A stretch of DNA of 50,109 nucleotides. Origin: a virus. Taxonomy: Duplodnaviria > Heunggongvirae > Uroviricota > Caudoviricetes. Below are positions 825 to 8,603 of the stretch, piece by piece; the stretch's first letter is position 1; every line of letters begins with the position of its first letter. The DNA lies in the IMG/VR virus record IMGVR_UViG_2740892016_000006, positions 1 to 50,109 of that record, one strand, 5' to 3'. Under the pieces are notes generated by a model that saw only the letters and a program-made list of their open reading frames with translations, ran no database searches and was not told the DNA's origin. The translations under genes were made by a program, and so were the position numbers.

Positions 825-1227
825 TAATCAAAATTTAAAGGCGCATGCTTTACGAACAGCAGTCTTACGCTACTACATTGCTGATGCATTCATTTCCTTA
901 ATGGTGCGTGTTCATAATGAACCTGTTTATATTGAAGATGGCGAACGAATAGAACTCTCCCACGAAAAAGTGGTGAGTAATATTATTTACCATATTGAAA
1001 TGCCGTGGGTGAATGAGTTTGGGGCTGATGCTGGTTGCATACTGGCCGCAGAGAAACTGGAAAAAATGCTTAAACCAGGCTTTATGTCAGAAAATATTCG
1101 CCTGTCAGTTTTTGGTGTCACAGAGATGCGTGAGGTTTACCGGGATATTATTTTCGGAGCACCTGATGGCGAACTACCCGAAGGTTTTGAATTTGTGAAG
1201 CCGGAAGGTCAGGAGGTGCTGCTGTGA
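817..1227 (+). CDS. Hypothetical satellite protein preceding the primase (136 aa; epsilon/orf151 position)
   Basis: ORF translationally coupled to the alpha gene (overlap at 1224-1227). Confidence 0.5.
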   Translation: MNNNQNLKAHALRTAVLRYYIADAFISLMVRVHNEPVYIEDGERIELSHEKVVSNIIYHIEMPWVNEFGADAGCILAAEKLEKMLKPGFMSENIRLSVFGVTEMREVYRDIIFGAPDGELPEGFEFVKPEGQEVLL

Positions 1228-3911
1228 AAACACCGTCTGTATCCACGATTTCCGGAGCTGCAATTGGGCGCTGGCCTTATATCCTGTCAGCATTAGGTAT
1301 TAAAGTACCGTCCGCAGGACATCATGGGGCTTGCCCTGCCTGTGGTGGAAAAGATCGTTTTCGACTGGACGATAAAGCGGGGCGAGGGACGTGGTTTTGT
1401 AATCAGTGCGGTCATGGCGATGGTCTTGATCTGGTTCGTCTGGTGACAGGAAGAAAGATAAAAGAAGTCGCCGGGATGGTATCTGAGGCGCTTGCATTAC
1501 CAGAAATACAGGAGAAGCCCGCATTGCCAGCCAGGAAAAAGGCCGCAGGAAAAGAAGCGGGCGCGGAGCGATATACCAGACTCAGACAGCAGTCCTGCAA
1601 TGGTGAGCCGGTCTATCTGACAAATAAGAGCTTACACGGGTATTCACTTCCCTTGCTGTCACAGCCTTTGAATCTGGCCGGAATAACATTTTCCACCGGT
1701 TCATTACTGCTGCCTTTGACGGATATTTCCGGGAATATTACTGGTGGCCAGCTTATCAATCCTGACGGGGATAAAAGTCTGCTGCCCGGTAGCCAGCTGT
1801 CTGGCGCATTCATTGCCCTGACCGATATACCCGCTGAAACACCTGAACAGGTGATTATCACTGAGGGTTTTGCCACGGCGCTTACCGTCAGTCTGCTGAC
1901 TGAAGGATGGATCGTGGCGGCTGTCGCTGCCACCAATTTACTGAAGGTGACGGAGCAGATCCGAAAACGCTGGCCGGAAACCCGGATCATTCTGGCCGGA
2001 GATAATGATCTGGCTGACGGCAAAGAAAACACCGGGCGTATTCAGGCAGAGAAAGCCGCCAAAGCGGTGGATGGCTGGGTAACGCTCCCTCCGGTACGCC
2101 ATAAGGCTGACTGGGATGATTATCGGCAGGAAGTGGGGAAAGAACGGGCGAGAGATGCCTTTCGTGAAGAAATGACGCTGCATGGCAAAGGGCAGACCCG
2201 TTTACCAGAAGGGTTCCGGCTGACAAAAGAATATTTGTGGTACGACAAGCTGGTTAATAAGTCTGATGGTGATACAGAGATACGTAATATCAAAATTTGC
2301 AGTCCGTTGCGGGTGACGGCAATCACCAGTGATGCTGATGGAAGTAATTACGGGCGTTTGCTGGAATGGGAAGATACCAACGGAAACAGCCGTAAATGGG
2401 CAATGCCGATGGAGATGCTGGGCGGTAGCGGGGAAGAACTGCGCCGCGTTCTGCTGGTTAACGGGCTTTCTTACATCAACATTAACGGCATGGCCAGAGC
2501 ATTCCTGATGGAATATATCTCGCTGTGTAAACCGGACAGAAAAGTAACCTGTGTGAATAAAACTGGCTGGCACGGCGGGGTTTACGTTCTCCAGGATGAA
2601 GTGATAGGGCGCGAAGCCCAGTCAGTCATCTTACAAACATCGAGTGTGCAGGGGCGTGATTTTCGTGTCAGCGGCACATCAGAGGGCTGGCGTGAAAATA
2701 TAGGCCGTTATTGCATAAAGAATGCCCGTCTTGCCTTTGCGGTGAGTCTGGCATTTGCTGCCCCCCTTCTGAAACTGGTTGGTATCGGCGGTGGAGGTTA
2801 TCACCTCAAAGGGGAATCCACAGACGGTAAAACCACGACGATGAAAGTGGCTGCATCAGTATGTGGTGGAACAGATTTCTGGCATACGTGGCGGGCGACG
2901 GGGAATGCCTTAGAAGGAACGGCGAGCCGCCGCAATGATGCCACGCTGATGCTGGATGAAATCCGGGAGGTTGACGGCAGGGAGGCGGGAAATATCGCTT
3001 ATATGCTGGCTAACGGGCAGGGCAAAGCCAGAGCCAGAACAGATGGTTCGGTAAGGGAAACCAACCGCTGGAATCTGTTGTTTCTGTCTACCGGGGAACT
3101 GTCACTGGTAGAGCATGCGGCAAGCGCCGGGGAACGTACGTATGCCGGGGTTGAGGTCAGAATGATCCAGATCCCAAGCGATTCGGGCAAGTATGGCGTG
3201 TTTGAAGAACTTCATGGCTTCAGTAGCGGGAAAACCCTGGCTGAGCATCTTGAGCAGCACGTAGCGCATTATCATGGTGCACCATTCCGCGACTGGCTGT
3301 ATTGCCTGACCGCTGATCTGCCGGAACTGACCAGTCAGGCGAAAGCCTTATTGAAAGAGTATACCCGAAGGCTGACGCCGGAAAATGCCGGGAATCAGGT
3401 TGGCCGGGCTGTTACCCGTTTTGCTCTGGTTGCGATGGCCGGGGAGCTGGCCACAAAAGCGGGCATCACAGGATGGCCGGAGGGAGAGGCCTTTCGTGCC
3501 GCTCAAAGCTGTCTGGCTGCATGGATGGCTGACCGGGGCCATACAGCTAATCAGGAAGATAAAGCGGCACTTGAACAGGTTCGGGACTTCATGACGCGTA
3601 ATCAGTTCAGTCGGTTTGCTGACTGGAATGACGACAGGAACCGGCCTGTTTCAATGATGGGATTCAGAAAAGTCGATAAAGGAGACAACGTGACAGAGCC
3701 GGTTGTGACGTTCTACGTTCTCCCGTCAGGCTGGAAGGAGATCTGTAAAGGATTTGACTCGCGTAAGGTGGCCAGGTTGTGTGTGGACGCGGGCTGGCTG
3801 AAACCCGGTGAAGATGGCCGGACGCAAAACAGCATTCGCCTGCCAGAAATAGGGCTTAAACGTGTGTACCAGTTCAATACACAGGTACTGGGAAGCGCTG
3901 AACCTGAGTGA
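1224..3911 (+). CDS. P4 alpha-type primase-helicase (895 aa)
   Basis: GTG start after AGGAGG SD; N-terminal zinc ribbon CPACGG...CNQCGH, TOPRIM-like ILAGDND, D5-type NTPase with GESTDGKTT Walker A. Confidence 0.9.
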   Translation: MKTPSVSTISGAAIGRWPYILSALGIKVPSAGHHGACPACGGKDRFRLDDKAGRGTWFCNQCGHGDGLDLVRLVTGRKIKEVAGMVSEALALPEIQEKPALPARKKAAGKEAGAERYTRLRQQSCNGEPVYLTNKSLHGYSLPLLSQPLNLAGITFSTGSLLLPLTDISGNITGGQLINPDGDKSLLPGSQLSGAFIALTDIPAETPEQVIITEGFATALTVSLLTEGWIVAAVAATNLLKVTEQIRKRWPETRIILAGDNDLADGKENTGRIQAEKAAKAVDGWVTLPPVRHKADWDDYRQEVGKERARDAFREEMTLHGKGQTRLPEGFRLTKEYLWYDKLVNKSDGDTEIRNIKICSPLRVTAITSDADGSNYGRLLEWEDTNGNSRKWAMPMEMLGGSGEELRRVLLVNGLSYININGMARAFLMEYISLCKPDRKVTCVNKTGWHGGVYVLQDEVIGREAQSVILQTSSVQGRDFRVSGTSEGWRENIGRYCIKNARLAFAVSLAFAAPLLKLVGIGGGGYHLKGESTDGKTTTMKVAASVCGGTDFWHTWRATGNALEGTASRRNDATLMLDEIREVDGREAGNIAYMLANGQGKARARTDGSVRETNRWNLLFLSTGELSLVEHAASAGERTYAGVEVRMIQIPSDSGKYGVFEELHGFSSGKTLAEHLEQHVAHYHGAPFRDWLYCLTADLPELTSQAKALLKEYTRRLTPENAGNQVGRAVTRFALVAMAGELATKAGITGWPEGEAFRAAQSCLAAWMADRGHTANQEDKAALEQVRDFMTRNQFSRFADWNDDRNRPVSMMGFRKVDKGDNVTEPVVTFYVLPSGWKEICKGFDSRKVARLCVDAGWLKPGEDGRTQNSIRLPEIGLKRVYQFNTQVLGSAEPE

Positions 3912-3929: not shown

Positions 3930-4130
3930 TTTTATGAGGTAACACTGGTAACAGAGGTAACACCCGTTACTGATGCGGTTCTTCAGTGTTACCAGTCAAA
4001 AATACTGACTGGTAACAGAGGTAACAAAAAATGGTGTGTTACCACGCGTTACCTCTTGATTTTGCTAACTGGTAACAGATTAAATCCTTTTAAATCAATA
4101 GCGTTACACGTGTTACCAGTGTTACACGTT
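3930..4130. repeat. Iteron array (crr/ori-like): about a dozen GGTAACA / TGTTACC heptamers in both orientations
   Basis: Seen in sequence immediately downstream of the alpha gene, e.g. GAGGTAACACTGGTAACAGAGGTAACA, CTGGTAACAGAGGTAACA, GTGTTACCAGTGTTACACG. Confidence 0.6.
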
Positions 4131-4193
4131 CAGAACAAGAGGTAGGGATCCAAATCCCTTCTTCTGGCGGGCAACAGTATAGGGCACAGAACG

Positions 4194-4466
4194 ATGAAGA
4201 TGATGAGAATGTACTGCCCCACATGTCAGGCAGTAGCACGGATAGGTAAAACAAACAGGAAACACCCACAACTGTACGATGTGTACTGCTATTGCTCTAA
4301 TGTGGAGTGCGGTCACTCGTTTGTGATGAATGTTGCTTTCTCCCATTCCGTTAGTCCAAGCGCGCTGAACGGGCAGGGAAGGGTTAAAGAGCTGATTGAT
4401 GCAATTCCACCCGAGGAACGGGAAAAGGCTTTAAAGTTGCTGCTGGCTGCGCAAAAGAATGGGTAA
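4194..4466 (+). CDS. Ogr/Delta-family zinc-finger late-gene transcription activator (true start may be ATG at 4203 or 4209)
   Basis: CPTCQ-x22-CYCSNVEC arrangement matching the P2 Ogr / P4 Delta C-x2-C...C-x4-C zinc finger. Confidence 0.75.
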   Translation: MKMMRMYCPTCQAVARIGKTNRKHPQLYDVYCYCSNVECGHSFVMNVAFSHSVSPSALNGQGRVKELIDAIPPEEREKALKLLLAAQKNG

Positions 4467-5145
4467 AGTATGCGTCGGGAATGGCCGATCTGTTCCCGGA
4501 ACCTGAACACAGGATTTCAGTTTATACGGTCATAAAATTATTATTTTTCAACTGGTTATCTTCTTCATGTTTCACAAACCTTCATAAAATCACACACCTA
4601 AAATTAATTATCCATTTAATATCATAGAGTTGCGTATTCAGGCCATAGATTCGACGGACAGTAAAACTGAAAAAAAATGAATTTCTTTTCATTCTTTTCA
4701 GTTCCTGTATCGCAGTACATCTCGAGGACTGGCACGGACTGGCGGTATCGTTTGTAAAAAATCCAGGCTGAAAATTTTTAGTGATATGAAAACCGCAGGC
4801 GGGTGCGGTGTAGTGCCGTTTTGGTCTGTCGAGCGTATATTTTCCTTTTTCACGATTGCTGCATATCAAAACGAATGTGCAGATATCAGGCCGTGTCAAA
4901 CCGTGAATCGTGGAGCCTAAATGCCCAAACTACGTTTGTAGACCTAGCTAGGGGAAGGTTTCCACATATACTGCTACCTATCTTCCAGTCGCTGGTGAGG
5001 ATCAAGGTAAGCTAACTGGTGAACAAGAAAAGTACTTTCGTATCTTGCGTACTCGTTTTTTTTGATTAGTATGTACAGGTAGTAACTGGATGGTGAGAAT
5101 TCGTCATAACTTATCAAATTGCATGATGTTTATAGAGTATGAGTA

Positions 5146-6027
5146 ATGAGTCATAATAAAAAGGAATATGCTAAATTTTTCCGTCGCCCCATTTTTTCAT
5201 CCTTAGCAAAAGGTAAGGATATTTCGGATTTATTTGGGAGTTTTGATTCTTACTGCTATGAAACACTGTTTTCAAACAATGATAATAATGAACATGAGAT
5301 TTCACTAAGGGATTTATTTACATCATTATATGATTTTTTGCGTCTGAATTATAGAAATGAATATGTTTATAAGACAGCACTTGTCAATAAAATAATATTC
5401 GGTAAGCACAGCCCAAAAACAAGTTCGTCGTCCATAGAGTTACCAATTAAAAACTCTATAGTGGATGTTGCGGTGTTTAATGGTACGTCTACAGCTTACG
5501 AGATTAAGACAGAGTATGATTCACCAAAAAGGTTGATTACTCAAGCCCCTGATTATTTGGATGTTTTTGATAAAGTGTATATAGTTACACATCCAGAGTA
5601 TGCAAGTAAATATTGTGCTTTAAATCTCCCCAGAGTGGGAGTTATGGTTTTGAATAAAAAAGATCAATTGAGTGTCATTAAGGAGGCAGATTCAAATATT
5701 GATTATATTAAAAGTGACAGCTTGTTTTCAGTTCTTAGAAAGGAAGAGTTCTTAGCTATAATAGAAGATTACACTTCAACTAAAATAAATATGCCTAACG
5801 GATTGGTTTATGAATATTGTAAAGAGATATTCATGCAGATGCCATTAAACATAGCAAATAAATACTTTATCTCTGCTATGAAAAAAAGATGTAACGATAA
5901 AGTTTTTTTGGATTATATTTATTCTCTTCCAGCATGTTTACGTGTTTTAGGTTATGCAACACCATTATCAAGAAAGCAAAAAGAATTCATCATGAATTTG
6001 ATGGATGTAAAAATTAAAATTTGTTGA
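5146..6027 (+). CDS. Hypothetical protein A of AT-rich cargo operon (293 aa); possible PD-(D/E)xK-like nuclease motif
   Basis: Long ORF in visibly AT-rich DNA with Asn/Lys/Ile/Tyr-rich composition; motif IVDVAVF...AYEIKTEYD resembles the D...ExK catalytic strands of restriction-endonuclease-fold nucleases (weak). Confidence 0.7.
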   Translation: MSHNKKEYAKFFRRPIFSSLAKGKDISDLFGSFDSYCYETLFSNNDNNEHEISLRDLFTSLYDFLRLNYRNEYVYKTALVNKIIFGKHSPKTSSSSIELPIKNSIVDVAVFNGTSTAYEIKTEYDSPKRLITQAPDYLDVFDKVYIVTHPEYASKYCALNLPRVGVMVLNKKDQLSVIKEADSNIDYIKSDSLFSVLRKEEFLAIIEDYTSTKINMPNGLVYEYCKEIFMQMPLNIANKYFISAMKKRCNDKVFLDYIYSLPACLRVLGYATPLSRKQKEFIMNLMDVKIKIC

Positions 6028-6048
6028 TATCCTCAGGAGTTGTAAGTT

Positions 6049-6999
6049 ATGTATAGCCCATATTTGTATGCGAGAAGTACAGAGTTATTATGCCTTAGGG
6101 ACCTCGTTGCGAAGGGAGTTAGCCTAAATGGTCTGCTACCAATTTTAGAACCAATTAACGTCAATACGAGAAATTTATTAACATGTTTAAATGTTTGGAA
6201 TTCTGACATAATTGTTATCCTTAATCCTTATCAGGAAGATTTTTCTTCACACAATAACGTCTTAACTTTAAATCAAAATTTATCAAGTGTATTAACAAAT
6301 AAAAATAATATCATCTCTGGATATCTTATTCAGCCCAATACAACGATTAATGATATTAATAATTGGTTGAATGCTAACTTAAATAGACGAGTTGCACTTC
6401 TATATGATAATCCATCATTATCCAACTCTGATATTCAGTTGTTGGCGACAAATCAATTGATTAGTTATCATGTTGTTTTAAATAATAAAATGCTTCCTAA
6501 TCAGTGCGCTCTTCTTCCTTTGTCGAAGTTAATTATTATTAGCGATAACTTTAGAAAGTTAGCAAAAAATGCTGATTATAATGGGCCGGAACTTTTCACG
6601 CACGCACATCAATTCGTGGGACAAAATTACTTAGGATTTGGCGATTATACAATTACTGGCCAGGTACTAGATCTTGGAGGTGGTCAACCTTCTGCTGTTG
6701 CCGCACATTTGGTGTTCAAGAATTTACAAGCGAATACAGTTTGGATTCGTCATTTTGTATCAAGCAACACGCAACGAGGAAGTTCAAATGTTACTGCAAA
6801 ATTTTTAGATGTTTCAGATCAAATTACAAATCTTGTTCCCCAACATCCAACCCAGTTTGGCAGCAACATTGGTCTTAACTATTATTATTACAATAGTCAA
6901 CCAACTGTAAGGCATTTCCCTGGGTTGCCAAAAAACAAACAGTATCAAATTACTCACCATATTTGTTTCATGCTGGATTTAATAGCAGGTCGTATTTAA
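6049..6999 (+). CDS. Hypothetical protein B of AT-rich cargo operon (316 aa)
   Basis: ATG at 6049 with AGGAG 10 nt upstream, 21 nt after gene A stop; Asn/Ser/Leu-rich, no motif I recognise; 3' end overlaps the integrase 3' end (6979-6999). Confidence 0.7.
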   Translation: MYSPYLYARSTELLCLRDLVAKGVSLNGLLPILEPINVNTRNLLTCLNVWNSDIIVILNPYQEDFSSHNNVLTLNQNLSSVLTNKNNIISGYLIQPNTTINDINNWLNANLNRRVALLYDNPSLSNSDIQLLATNQLISYHVVLNNKMLPNQCALLPLSKLIIISDNFRKLAKNADYNGPELFTHAHQFVGQNYLGFGDYTITGQVLDLGGGQPSAVAAHLVFKNLQANTVWIRHFVSSNTQRGSSNVTAKFLDVSDQITNLVPQHPTQFGSNIGLNYYYYNSQPTVRHFPGLPKNKQYQITHHICFMLDLIAGRI

Positions 7000-8154
7000 T
7001 AAGCTAGCGTACCATTCCATCATTACTTGTCGATCTTTAATATATTGCGCATGATTGTAAGTACCTCGAATAGAGTTCTTATCAACATGCGCAAGCTGCA
7101 TTTCAATCCAGGCACTTTCAAACCCATGCTCATGCAAGATGGTGCTCATGGTATGCCTGAAACCGTGACCCGTTAACCGACCGTGATAACCCAGTAGTTT
7201 TATCACTTTGTTGATGCTGGCTTCGCTCATTGGTTTACTGACGTCATTCCGGCCAGGGAAAACGAGGCTGTAATTCCCTGTTATTTCTTGCAGCTTTTTC
7301 AGGATATTGATCGCCTGAGTTGATAACGGAACCAGATGGGGGCGGCGTTTCTTCATCCGTTCTTTGGGGATCTCCCATAAGGCATTATCTAAATCAAACT
7401 CAGCCCATTCCGCTGCACGTAGTTCAATTGTTCGCACGCCTGTTAGCATCAACAGCTGCGTGGCGTATTTGGTAACTAAACTGCCCTGATAGTTATCCAG
7501 AGCATTAACGAACTCGGGCAACTCGCTTTCAGTCAGGAACGGGAAGTGTTGGGTTTTAGGTTTGTTGAGTGCGATAGCTAAATCGGGTGCAAAATTATAC
7601 TTTGCTCTACCAGTGGCAACAGCATAACGAAGCACTTCACCACAGCGGCGGCGGATCTTACTGGTTTGCTCTAGCGCACCTCTTTTCTCTATTTTTTGCA
7701 GGACGGTTAGCAGTTCTAATGGTTCAATCTGCTCAATTGGGCGCTGGCCGATAAAAGGAAAAATATCCTTTTCCATACAATTGAGAACCTCTTTTGCATA
7801 ACCCTCTGACCAGGTGGCTTTTTTCGATGAGTGCCATTCTCTGGCCACAGACTCAAAGCTGTTCTCATGCGCGAACTGCAAAGCAATCTTATCTGCTTTT
7901 CTGGCTTCACTTGGGTTTATCCCGTTGGCTAACATCGAACGCGCTTCATCACGTTTGGTACGTGCCTGTGCCAACGACACATCGCCATATACGCCAAAGG
8001 AAATCATCTTAGGCTTACCTGCAAAGCGATAGCGAAAACGCCAGCCTTTACTGCCCGCTGTGTCGATCAGGAGTGATAGCCCCATACCATCGTTAAGCGT
8101 ATAGGGTTTGTCCTTCGGTTTTGCTCTTTTTATTTGGATGTCAGATAGCAGCAT
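6979..8154 (-). CDS. P4-family tyrosine integrase (about 391 aa; start taken at the second Met of the track ORF)
   Basis: N-terminal KPKDKPY...WRFRYRFAGK arm-binding motif, C-terminal HGFRH...LAHVD...RGTYNHAQY catalytic region; homologous to the IntS-like integrase at 48952-50109. Confidence 0.9.
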   Translation of the reverse strand: MLLSDIQIKRAKPKDKPYTLNDGMGLSLLIDTAGSKGWRFRYRFAGKPKMISFGVYGDVSLAQARTKRDEARSMLANGINPSEARKADKIALQFAHENSFESVAREWHSSKKATWSEGYAKEVLNCMEKDIFPFIGQRPIEQIEPLELLTVLQKIEKRGALEQTSKIRRRCGEVLRYAVATGRAKYNFAPDLAIALNKPKTQHFPFLTESELPEFVNALDNYQGSLVTKYATQLLMLTGVRTIELRAAEWAEFDLDNALWEIPKERMKKRRPHLVPLSTQAINILKKLQEITGNYSLVFPGRNDVSKPMSEASINKVIKLLGYHGRLTGHGFRHTMSTILHEHGFESAWIEMQLAHVDKNSIRGTYNHAQYIKDRQVMMEWYASLLNTTCY

Positions 8155-8314
8155 GTGTATAGAAAAAAGATCGAACTCAGTTATACACAATGTTATACGC
8201 AAAGATGTATAGATTCCATTAGAAATAATGGTACTTTGCTGGACGAGTATAAGGAGATGATATCAGTTAAAACAGTGAGTTATGGAATTAATTGAACTTA
8301 GTGAGAAGTGTTCA

Positions 8315-8329
8315 TGGTGTCCCCTGCAG
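8315..8329 (-). other. Attachment-site core: TGGTGTCCCCTGCAG, reverse complement of the 3' acceptor end of tRNA-Arg (argW) as I recall it
   Basis: Sits between the satellite integrase start (8154) and torI (8403); argW sequence is from memory and must be verified. Confidence 0.5.
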
Positions 8330-8402
8330 ACATCTACTTGAAGCGGCAGGGGATTGATTGGAATGGTGTTTTTTAGATGTGAAAAAAATTTTACCCGCTA
8401 TT

Positions 8403-8603
8403 TTACCCATTGGCGCGGCTTAAGAGCTTATTTTTGAATTCACAATGGTCACGATATAACCATCTTGCTCGTCCGTGGATAACTTTGGCTTTAGGCAGGT
8501 CGCCGGACTTAATCCGGTCATAGATGAAGGTCTTACCGAAGCCAGTATCGGCCATGATGAATTTCAAATCAACCAGGGAATCAGGCTGTAGTTCGTGTTG
8601 CAT
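8403..8603 (-). CDS. torI: TorI-type excisionase / recombination directionality factor (66 aa, AlpA-like)
   Basis: Sequence MQHELQPDSLVDLKFIMADTGFGKTFIYDRIKSGDLPKAKVIHGRARWLYRDHCEFKNKLL matches the recalled E. coli KplE1 TorI. Confidence 0.8.
   Translation of the reverse strand: MQHELQPDSLVDLKFIMADTGFGKTFIYDRIKSGDLPKAKVIHGRARWLYRDHCEFKNKLLSRANG

What the first reader, a model, noticed from the sequence alone, without database searches (positions are those of the whole stretch)
5146..6999. AT-rich two-gene cargo operon in the satellite's integrase-proximal hotspot: candidate undescribed anti-phage system
Two co-directional genes (293 and 316 aa) sit between the Ogr/Delta-like activator and the P4-family integrase, the variable cargo slot where P4-like satellites are known to carry defence systems. 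The DNA is conspicuously AT-rich against its flanks and has a 680-bp AT-rich leader (4467-5145). The genes are 21 nt apart, gene B has its own AGGAG SD, and gene B's last 21 nt overlap the integrase 3' end convergently (6979-6999). I recognise neither protein as a named defence family; protein A has a weak PD-(D/E)xK-like strand pair (IVDVAVF ... AYEIKTEYD), protein B has no motif I can place. A faint recollection of sce7725/sce7726-type cassettes could not be substantiated.
Basis: partly seen in the sequence, partly recalled or inferred. Interest (0 to 1): 0.85.

Follow-up and report, generated by a model that had tools for sequence, protein, structure and literature searches.

The report
Nuclease plus TIM-barrel candidate defence pair
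Two AT-rich genes in the swappable cargo slot of a P4-related satellite in E. coli encode a restriction-enzyme-like nuclease and a TIM-barrel protein; both are relatives of parts of satellite P4's known anti-phage system gop-β-cII, so they are most likely an untested, gop-less version of that system rather than something wholly new.

Summary
Genes A (5146-6027) and B (6049-6999) are real, AT-rich (GC 0.31/0.34) and 21 nt apart, and B overlaps the P4-family integrase by 21 nt. The claim that they are unnamed does not hold. A is an sce7726-family protein (NCBIfam 175.6 bits) and B an sce7725-family protein (242.2 bits), as RefSeq already annotates them. A belongs to the family of P4 cII, one component of the validated gop-β-cII system, and has a PD-(D/E)xK nuclease fold with invariant E98/D107/E119/K121. 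B is a TIM barrel (pLDDT 95) and a remote homologue of P4 β (hhalign 94.7%, decoys mostly ≤1%); β in turn matches PD-λ-2C. No gop is present. The pairing is strict (24/24 loci across phyla). The pair sits beside integrases, TIR, Cap4, Hachiman and RM genes, and in four lineages it gains a RES NADase gene. The slot is variable: a sister satellite carries an Sll1717 ATPase there, and the swapped module is about 4826-7035. The pair occurs in 422 of 5,426 complete E. coli genomes. An IS1 knockout of B with A intact argues against B being a simple antitoxin. Verdict: a probable two-gene variant of gop-β-cII, never tested experimentally, with an inferred mechanism.

The parts
4194..4466 (+). Ogr/Delta-like zinc-finger gene; left flank of the slot (satellite backbone, not cargo)
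   Evidence: Pfam Ogr_Delta 5.1e-14; RefSeq annotation
4467..4825 (.). Conserved backbone spacer downstream of ogr (GC 0.39). It ends in a terminator-like hairpin at 4792-4819, exactly where homology with the alternative-cargo satellite stops
   Evidence: blastn against L008: 4211-4825 at 92% identity; hairpin; boundary sequences
4826..5145 (+). Cargo-specific upstream region (GC 0.41, falling to 0.35 in the last 150 nt); presumed to hold the promoter, which was not identified
   Evidence: No homology to L008; only weak promoter-like matches; no Rfam hit
5146..6027 (+). Gene A: sce7726 / Phage_P4_cII-family PD-(D/E)xK nuclease, 293 aa. Catalytic-type residues E98, D107, E119 and K121; about 64 extra N-terminal residues relative to P4 cII
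6035..6039 (+). AGGAG Shine-Dalgarno sequence of gene B, 9 nt before its ATG
   Evidence: Sequence read directly
6049..6999 (+). Gene B: sce7725-family TIM-barrel protein, 316 aa; remote homologue of P4 β. Conserved residues Y2, P4, E12, E34, N59, D166, N174, D199, H220, H235, S238, K297 and H304
6979..7035 (-). Last ~19 codons of the integrase. They lie inside the swapped cargo segment, and positions 6979-6999 overlap B convergently
   Evidence: Homology with L008 resumes only at 7036; the integrase C-terminal tails differ; a similar 27-nt B/int overlap occurs in Morganella
7036..8154 (-). Remainder of the P4-family tyrosine integrase (right flank, backbone)
   Evidence: Pfam Arm-DNA-bind_3, Phage_int_M and Phage_integrase; 40% identity to P4 int, E 1e-100
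8315..8329 (-). att core: the 3'-terminal 15 nt of tRNA-Arg (argW), TGGTGTCCCCTGCAG. This is the satellite's right end, and a TorI-encoding lambdoid prophage begins at 8330
   Evidence: Comparison with L001, where the complete tRNA-Arg follows; no intact tRNA in the window

Best explanation
The two genes are the E. coli representative of the widespread sce7726/sce7725 cassette. I read this cassette as a gop-less, two-gene relative of satellite P4's anti-phage system gop-β-cII, carried as swappable cargo of a P4-related satellite integrated at argW. Shown: protein A is a P4-cII-family protein with a PD-(D/E)xK nuclease fold and an intact E...D...ExK catalytic set. Protein B is a single-domain TIM barrel with a conserved polar pocket, remotely homologous to P4 β. 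The two genes are always adjacent, the slot is variable, and the pair sits in mobile islands and defence islands. Inferred: A is the effector, a metal-dependent DNA nuclease. B is the partner that senses infection or licenses A. The inference about B rests on the β-like PD-λ-2C, which is required for defence but not for neutralising the toxin. On infection, a phage product (comparable to orf184, which triggers gop-β-cII) would act on or through B. A would then cut phage and/or host DNA and stop phage replication, probably by abortive infection. In three-gene relatives the same β-like/cII-like core is coupled to an additional killer: Gop in P4, or a RES NAD+ phosphorylase in several lineages.
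For: Family identity: NCBIfam 175.6 and 242.2 bits; RefSeq names. P4 cII is itself sce7726-family at 151 bits. PF26915 Phage_P4_cII is recorded on A's homologues. PADLOC 'cll' hit 1.2e-18. gop-β-cII protects against λ and P1 (PMC9122126) and is an Abi-type system triggered by phage orf184 (bioRxiv 10.1101/2023.04.06.535777). Nuclease fold and invariant E98/D107/E119/K121; Rousset's HHpred assigns cII to MmcB-like at 99.8%. B is a TIM barrel. B versus the β family: 90.5% with E 1.4e-6, then 94.7% with E 6e-8 over 266 columns; 37 decoys scored at most 33.8 against 54.6 and 62.2 for the real comparisons. The invariant N-terminal YxPxLxxRxxE motif and the GD motif coincide in both families. β also matches PD-Lambda-2_C, and PD-λ-2C is required for defence but not for toxin neutralisation (PMC9519451). 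Pairing in 24/24 loci, from Proteobacteria, Acidobacteria and Bacteroidetes. Context: type I RM, Hachiman and Cap4 island; integrases, TIR, Cap4, Schlafen helicase and a restriction enzyme; an OLD-like ATPase. RES as a coupled third gene in four lineages. Variable slot. AT-rich composition. A protein annotated 'sce7725 family protein' was detected by mass spectrometry in clinical E. coli (PMC8203672).
Confidence: 0.55

Rival explanations
1. A classical two-gene toxin-antitoxin (addiction) module that stabilises the satellite in the chromosome: A is a constitutively toxic nuclease and B its antitoxin, with no dedicated anti-phage role.
For: gop and β were interpreted as a toxin-antitoxin pair, and P4 β is called an antitoxin. 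The genes are tightly linked on a mobile element. TA modules such as HipA and HigB lie nearby in some loci.
Against: In strain THO-015 an IS1 truncates B after about 143 codons while A is the identical intact protein, and the cells are viable. The MNCRE44 listing shows the same 'sce7725 (x2) + IS1' pattern. The β-like PD-λ-2C is not needed to neutralise its toxin. B is a 316-aa enzyme-like TIM barrel with a conserved pocket, unlike typical small labile antitoxins. Caveat: A may simply be poorly expressed in those strains.
Confidence: 0.15
2. A satellite life-cycle function (lysogeny or helper exploitation), as the historical name 'cII' of the P4 homologue suggests, rather than defence.
For: The P4 homologue was named as a clear-plaque-type gene (my recollection of P4 genetics; not verifiable in the library). 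The cargo is fixed in this satellite lineage, and the same cargo sits in the same position in a Morganella satellite at 61% identity.
Against: The pair occurs far outside satellites: in chromosomal islets between housekeeping genes in Acidobacteria, on plasmids of Moraxella, Shinella and Rhizobium, and in a Paraburkholderia defence island. Sister satellites replace it with unrelated ATPases. Rousset et al. call P4's gop, β and cII non-essential.
Confidence: 0.08
3. A DNA repair or DNA-modification module: an MmcB-like repair endonuclease working with a TIM-barrel enzyme (for example a glycosylase or transglycosylase-like activity) on damaged or modified DNA.
Against: The distribution is patchy and mobile, the genes are AT-rich, and they sit beside integrases and defence genes. 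Homologues belong to a validated defence system. B's TGT and Cap10 matches are no better than matches to many unrelated TIM barrels, at 6-12% identity. A modification-based self/non-self system would in any case also count as defence.
Confidence: 0.1

Closest known systems
P4 gop-β-cII (Rst_gop_beta_cll; Rousset et al. 2022)
   Same: A and P4 cII belong to the same curated families (NCBIfam sce7726, Pfam PF26915, PADLOC 'cll') and share the PD-(D/E)xK core (39% identity over it). B is a remote homologue of β. Both systems are cargo placed next to a P4-family integrase on a satellite. In both, the β-like gene and the cII-like gene are adjacent, and a convergent β→ ←cII layout also occurs among sce7725 loci (L005).
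   Different: There is no gop gene. B is not a member of the β family proper (no PF14350 or PADLOC 'beta' hit, different conserved residues, 316 vs 355 aa). A has about 64 extra conserved N-terminal residues. The genes are usually co-directional A→B rather than gop→β→ ←cII. This pair has no experimental phenotype.
PD-λ-2 (Vassallo et al. 2022)
   Same: It contains a β-like third component, PD-λ-2C, and P4 β matches its PADLOC models at 8e-14. PD-λ-2C is required for defence but not for toxin neutralisation, which is the functional precedent I use for B.
   Different: The other PD-λ-2 components are a HigB-like protein and an Xre-peptidase fusion, and it has no cII-like nuclease. B itself does not hit the PD-Lambda-2_C models at E ≤ 0.1.
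MmcB-like / SPO1766 (PDB 3dnx) and type II restriction endonucleases
   Different: A has additional N- and C-terminal helical domains (residues 1-87 and 185-293), no methyltransferase partner, and an obligate TIM-barrel partner.
RES-containing toxin systems (Xre-RES type)
   Same: In four lineages a RES NAD+ phosphorylase gene is translationally coupled directly after sce7725. This shows the pair can be wired to a known abortive-infection-type killer.
   Different: The E. coli locus has no RES gene. The RES proteins found here are long (333-356 aa) with an extra N-terminal domain, and they are not paired with an Xre antitoxin.

Membership tests
NCBIfam NF033832 sce7726 family | HMM score above the curated cutoff (70 bits) | tested here: met
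   A scores 175.6 bits, E 9.6e-52, covering model positions 1-183 of 184
NCBIfam NF033831 sce7725 family | HMM score above the curated cutoff (60 bits) | tested here: met
   B scores 242.2 bits, E 1.1e-71, full length 1-311 of 312
sce7726/sce7725 cassette | The two genes are adjacent | tested here: met
   21-nt gap here. 24 of 24 loci with an intact sce7725 have an adjacent cII-family gene. One exception is an unverified contig whose upstream 295-aa ORF is not recognisable as cII-family
Pfam PF26915 Phage_P4_cII | Match to the family model, or demonstrable homology to P4 cII | tested here: met
   The model is absent from the local Pfam copy, but all listed homologues of A carry a precomputed PF26915 hit. 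PADLOC 'cll' 1.2e-18; BLASTP to P4 cII 9e-11; P4 cII is sce7726-family at 151 bits
PD-(D/E)xK nuclease superfamily | α/β restriction-endonuclease-like core fold | tested here: met
PD-(D/E)xK nuclease superfamily | Catalytic D...(D/E)xK residues on strands β2 and β3 | tested here: met
   E98, D107, E119 and K121 are invariant in 38 diverse homologues and lie on the predicted strands 94-101, 104-111 and 115-121
PD-(D/E)xK nuclease superfamily | Metal-dependent nuclease activity | not testable with these tools
   Needs purified protein
gop-β-cII defence system | cII-family component | tested here: met
   See the PF26915 row above
gop-β-cII defence system | β protein (Pfam PF14350 / PADLOC 'beta') | tested here: not met
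   B has no Pfam or PADLOC hit at E ≤ 0.1, and BLASTP to P4 β is not significant. Only remote profile-level homology is seen, at 90.5-94.7%
gop-β-cII defence system | gop: a small toxic protein encoded immediately upstream of β | tested here: not met
   No such ORF in 4467-5145 or elsewhere in the cargo. It is also absent from the other sce7725 loci, whereas β loci in Pseudomonas, Methylibium and Acinetobacter all have a 109-161-aa ORF there
gop-β-cII defence system | Protection against phages (λ and P1 for P4's system) | not testable with these tools
   Needs plaque assays
PD-λ-2 | HigB-like, Xre-peptidase and β-like components | tested here: not met
   The cargo holds only A and B, and B does not hit the PD-Lambda-2_C models
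TIM-barrel fold (protein B) | (β/α)8-type barrel | tested here: met
P4 satellite defence hotspot (Rousset 2022 definition: between psu and int, next to cos) | Variable cargo adjacent to a P4-family integrase | tested here: met
   int is 40% identical to P4 int; alternative cargo sits in the same slot in L008
P4 satellite defence hotspot (Rousset 2022 definition: between psu and int, next to cos) | psu on the other flank and a P2/P4 cos site | tested here: not met
   The other flank is ogr/delta-like and no psu or sid is annotated. No cos 19-mer was found with up to 5 mismatches. The primase shares only its N-terminal third with P4 α. The locus's accessions are absent from Rousset's held supplements, one of which was cut when stored
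Type II toxin-antitoxin pair | The antitoxin is indispensable while the toxin gene is intact | tested here: inconclusive
   A natural IS1 knockout of B with an intact, identical A is viable, which argues against this model. However, A's expression level in that strain is unknown

The most novel reading that the evidence does not exclude
The β-like TIM barrel and the cII-like nuclease form an ancient, portable two-protein core of bacterial immunity that the field has seen only piecemeal, as β and cII in P4 and as PD-λ-2C. In this reading the TIM barrel is a catalytically active enzyme of a kind not yet known in defence, acting on a nucleotide, a phage DNA modification or a phage protein. Its reaction licenses the nuclease. 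The same core is plugged into interchangeable killers: none in the two-gene form, Gop in P4, RES NADase in several lineages, and HigB/peptidase in PD-λ-2.
Probability: 0.3. Interest if true: 0.75.

Novelty: new variant of a known kind. Interest (0 to 1): 0.55.

Why it matters
If the pair defends, it would add a widespread system that PADLOC (version 2.0.0 tested here) does not call. The family has about 1,490 clusters at 50% identity across several phyla, and the pair is present in about 8% of complete E. coli genomes, including ST131-labelled strains. It would also reinterpret gop-β-cII. The conserved unit would be the β-like/cII-like pair, not the gop/β 'toxin-antitoxin' pair, and gop, RES and the other partners would be optional add-on effectors. 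That gives a concrete and testable entry point into the unknown function of β-like TIM-barrel proteins, which recur in gop-β-cII, PD-λ-2 and this cassette. It also shows that satellites lacking psu, sid or cos, which fall outside the published P4 hotspot definition, have the same kind of cargo slot.

Tried and rejected
- Sequence search of both family profiles against all PDB chains gave nothing meaningful (best E 0.057, GroEL fragments).
- Direct BLASTP of B against P4 β was not significant, so profile methods with decoy controls were needed.
- Foldseek against AFDB50 was unavailable. BFVD gave one significant but unnamed hit, Gordonia phage Powerball at E 4.8e-9, and did not return P4 β.
- I looked for a gop-like small ORF in the 680-bp leader and found none.
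- I looked for a P2/P4 cos site in the conserved spacer and across the whole satellite and found none.
- An Rfam scan of 4100-8450 gave only a sub-threshold malK-II match at E 0.27.
- The promoter scan found no convincing promoter in 4826-5145.
- Literature searches for PF14350, PF26915 and Beta_protein returned only noise. The search for MmcB plus TIM barrel plus anti-phage returned nothing relevant. The 1990 P4 paper is not in the library.
- The 'Listeria phage LM 4-14-1' record looked like a second satellite but is a chromosomal fragment of unverified origin (ABC transporter, amidase), and its upstream partner ORF is not recognisably cII-like.
- The search for related loci with the full diverse alignment failed for lack of conserved stretches. 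A narrower alignment worked but biased the locus sample towards Proteobacteria.
- I first suspected the integrase belonged to the lambdoid prophage on the right. I rejected this because genomes without that prophage have int directly beside argW.
Full report
**1. The observation**

The window is E. coli DNA. Two co-directional ORFs of 293 aa (A, 5146-6027) and 316 aa (B, 6049-6999) lie between an Ogr/Delta-like zinc-finger gene (4194-4466) and a tyrosine integrase on the minus strand. RefSeq places the integrase at 6979-8154.

- A's stop codon is at 6025-6027, an AGGAG lies at 6035-6039, and B's ATG is at 6049, which leaves a 21-nt gap.
- B and the integrase overlap convergently by 21 nt.
- GC is 0.306 for A and 0.340 for B, against 0.465 for the integrase, 0.533 for the primase and 0.463 for the whole window.
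- At this composition, an open frame of 293 or 316 codons has a chance probability of about 6e-11 or 9e-12 per frame. Both products also have deep homologue families, so these are real genes.

One correction concerns the "680-bp AT-rich leader". It is only mildly AT-rich (GC 0.39-0.41) and it is two different things, as section 3 shows.

**2. What the proteins are**

- A scores 175.6 bits on NCBIfam NF033832 (sce7726 family, cutoff 70).
- B scores 242.2 bits on NF033831 (sce7725 family, cutoff 60).
- RefSeq already annotates them with these names, as WP_000019149 and WP_000287253.

Protein A is a P4 cII-family nuclease.
- A hits the PADLOC model "cll" at 1.2e-18. That model is the cII protein of satellite P4.
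- RefSeq annotates P4 cII itself as sce7726 family, and it scores 151 bits on the same model.
- A and P4 cII share 39% identity over the catalytic core (E 9e-11).
- All listed homologues of A carry Pfam PF26915, named Phage_P4_cII. The local Pfam copy lacks that model, which explains the empty Pfam result.
- E98, D107, E119 and K121 are invariant across 38 diverse homologues and sit on the expected strands.
- Rousset et al.'s own HHpred table lists cII as MmcB-like at 99.8%.

Protein B is a TIM barrel remotely related to P4 β.
- B has no Pfam or PADLOC hit.
- Its AlphaFold model is excellent (pLDDT 95.2, pTM 0.93) and shows a TIM barrel.
- Across 161 diverse family members a polar set is conserved at 85-100%: Y2, P4, E12, E34, N59, D166, N174, D199, H220, H235, S238, K297 and H304. 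Most of these fall at or just after predicted β-strands, where TIM-barrel active sites lie.
- BLASTP of B against P4 β (355 aa, Pfam PF14350) is not significant. It did expose a shared N-terminal motif, YxPxLxxRxxE...LPxL.
- Profile-profile comparison gives 90.5% probability (E 1.4e-6, 249 columns). With deeper profiles (161 vs 118 sequences) it gives 94.7% (E 6e-8, 266 columns).
- Thirty-seven reversed or block-shuffled decoys scored at most 33.8, against 54.6 and 62.2 for the real comparisons.
- The invariant E12 and D199 of B align with the invariant E20 and D241 of β.

I conclude that B is a genuine but distant homologue of β. It is not a member of the β family, and most of its conserved pocket residues are not shared with β.

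**3. Context and boundaries**

- In genomes without the neighbouring prophage, the element is a satellite of about 10.5 kb lying between dsdC and tRNA-Arg (argW). Its genes, in order, are HTH, a hypothetical, a "P2 family major capsid protein", Icd-like, two hypotheticals, a Zn-ribbon/Toprim/DUF927 primase, ogr/delta-like, A, B and int.
- In this window a TorI-encoding lambdoid prophage is inserted in tandem. The 15-nt argW 3' end at 8315-8329 is the junction.
- The integrase is 40% identical to P4 int over its full length.
- The primase shares only its N-terminal third with P4 α.
- No psu, sid or cos was found. "P4-family integrase" is right, but "P4-like satellite" holds only in a mosaic sense.

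The slot is variable.
- Strain MEW has a 98.8%-identical ogr gene and an argW-adjacent integrase, but carries an Sll1717-family P-loop ATPase in between.
- A 73%-identical relative carries a 663-aa ATP-binding protein after ogr.
- Against the MEW locus, homology runs over 4211-4825 (92%) and 7036-8329 (93%). The exchanged module is therefore about 4826-7035.
- The left break falls immediately after a terminator-like hairpin at 4792-4819.
- The right break lies 57 nt inside the integrase, so the integrase's last ~19 codons travel with the cargo.
- A Morganella satellite of the same type carries the same cargo at 61% identity, with a 27-nt B/int overlap.

**4. Distribution**

- The cargo occurs in 422 of 5,426 complete E. 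coli genomes. It is always single-copy, chromosomal and at least 99% identical. Several of these genomes are labelled O25b:H4-ST131. The backbone occurs in 466 genomes.
- The sce7725 family has about 1,490 representatives at 50% identity with E ≤ 1e-3, all single-domain proteins of about 310 aa.
- In 24 of 24 loci with an intact sce7725, a cII-family gene is adjacent: 23 as A→B and one convergent. The hosts are Gamma- and Betaproteobacteria, Acidobacteria and a Bacteroidetes MAG.
- One contig of unverified origin is an exception.
- Neighbours include the following:
  - type I RM, a Schlafen/AlbA protein, Hachiman and a Cap4 nuclease in Paraburkholderia;
  - HipA and Bro-N in Pseudomonas;
  - an OLD-like ATPase-TOPRIM protein;
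  - across 104 flanking proteins from 20 loci, tyrosine integrases (7, four of them P4-type), TIR domains (3) and Cap4 nucleases (2) most often.
- The pair also occurs on plasmids.

**5. Relation to known systems**

- P4's gop-β-cII protects against λ and P1 (PMC9122126). It behaves as an abortive-infection system triggered by the phage gene orf184 (bioRxiv 10.1101/2023.04.06.535777).
- β-family genes in Pseudomonas, Methylibium and Acinetobacter all show the same three-gene layout: a small ORF, then β, then a convergent cII-family gene. No sce7725 locus has a gop-like ORF.
- P4 β also matches PADLOC's PD-Lambda-2_C models (8e-14).
- Vassallo et al. showed that PD-λ-2C is not needed to neutralise the toxin but is required for defence (PMC9519451).
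- In four independent lineages a RES NAD+ phosphorylase gene is tightly coupled directly after sce7725. These are a Moraxella plasmid, a faecal-metagenome scaffold, a Bacteroidetes MAG and a P. aeruginosa IME.

Together these results suggest a modular design: a β-like TIM barrel plus a cII-like nuclease as the conserved core, with optional extra killers (Gop or RES).

**6. Mechanism (largely inferred)**

I propose that A is the nuclease effector and that B senses infection or licenses A.

Two observations bear on this.
- In strain THO-015 an IS1 truncates B after about 143 codons while A remains the identical intact protein. B is therefore not an indispensable antitoxin for a constitutively lethal A, unless A is silent in that strain.
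- A proteogenomic study detected "sce7725 family protein" in clinical E. coli (PMC8203672). At least one protein of this family is therefore expressed. Its identity with this exact protein is my inference.

A's partner-specific N-terminal extension is a candidate interface with B. It spans about 64 residues, has invariant R14, and is absent from β-associated cII proteins. This is speculation.

**7. Novelty and verdict**

No paper in the library characterises sce7725/sce7726. Seven papers mention them incidentally, and the three I read report no functional test. PADLOC 2.0.0 recognises only A, as an orphan "cll".

The finding is therefore not an undescribed kind of system. It is a probable new two-gene variant of a known kind, with a useful unifying link between gop-β-cII, PD-λ-2 and the sce7725/sce7726 cassette.

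My confidence levels:
- family identities and nuclease/TIM-barrel folds: about 0.9 or higher;
- B-β homology: about 0.8;
- anti-phage function: about 0.65;
- the specific division of labour between A and B: about 0.3.

Noticed in passing
window 8315-8329, and 8330 onward: The satellite and a TorI-encoding lambdoid prophage are integrated in tandem at argW. Only the 3'-terminal 15 nt of the tRNA (TGGTGTCCCCTGCAG) separate them, and no intact tRNA lies anywhere in the 50-kb window.
   Followed up: partly
L001 6027-7914 (upstream of the window's left end; the window starts inside the Icd-like gene): The satellite encodes a 'P2 family phage major capsid protein' preceded by a 286-aa hypothetical protein, yet has no annotated sid, psu or recognisable cos. 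A P4-integrase satellite with its own P2-type capsid gene is unusual and may be a distinct satellite type.
   Followed up: no
window 4792-4819: A GC-rich hairpin with T-runs on both strands (terminator-like in both directions) sits exactly at the left boundary where homology with the alternative-cargo satellite ends. It may insulate the cargo from backbone transcription or mark the recombination joint.
   Followed up: partly
window 6979-7035: The last ~19 codons of the integrase lie inside the exchanged cargo segment. The two satellites have different integrase C-terminal tails (…IKDRQVMMEWYASLLNTTCY vs …LNQRREMLNWYSNTVMK). A similar B/int overlap (27 nt) is seen in Morganella.
   Followed up: partly
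L018 2724-4451 (E. coli THO-015); also listed for MNCRE44 and others: IS elements have repeatedly hit this locus. In THO-015, IS1 sits inside sce7725. IS66-family, ISEcp1 and IS4321 elements are listed within the matched locus in other genomes (exact positions not checked). This suggests recurrent inactivation or a preferred AT-rich target.
   Followed up: partly
L019 7922-8992; L017 3956-4957; L040 6945-7949: A long RES-domain protein (333-356 aa, one with a weak HEPN/RES N-terminal domain hit) is translationally coupled after sce7725 in distant lineages, giving a three-gene variant of the cassette.
   Followed up: partly
L035 7312-8592: In a Rugamonas MAG an Xre-HTH/Peptidase_M78 fusion lies just downstream of the pair. 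This is the same domain combination as the toxic PD-λ-2B component, which could be coincidence or another modular link.
   Followed up: no
L016 3088-3975 (record OR848224, 'UNVERIFIED_ORG Listeria phage'): The record is a chromosomal fragment (ABC transporter, amidase), not a phage. Its strong sce7725 gene (338 bits) is preceded by an overlapping 295-aa ORF with no detectable similarity to the cII family, so it may have a different partner.
   Followed up: partly
window 5146-6027 (protein A residues 1-69): A proteins partnered with sce7725 carry a conserved N-terminal extension of about 64 residues (invariant R14) that β-partnered cII proteins (223-264 aa) lack.
   Followed up: partly
window 1224-3911: The satellite primase is a mosaic. 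Its first ~317 residues (Zn-ribbon and Toprim) are 38% identical to P4 α, but the C-terminal part is a DUF927 domain with no significant BLASTP similarity to the rest of P4 α.
   Followed up: partly
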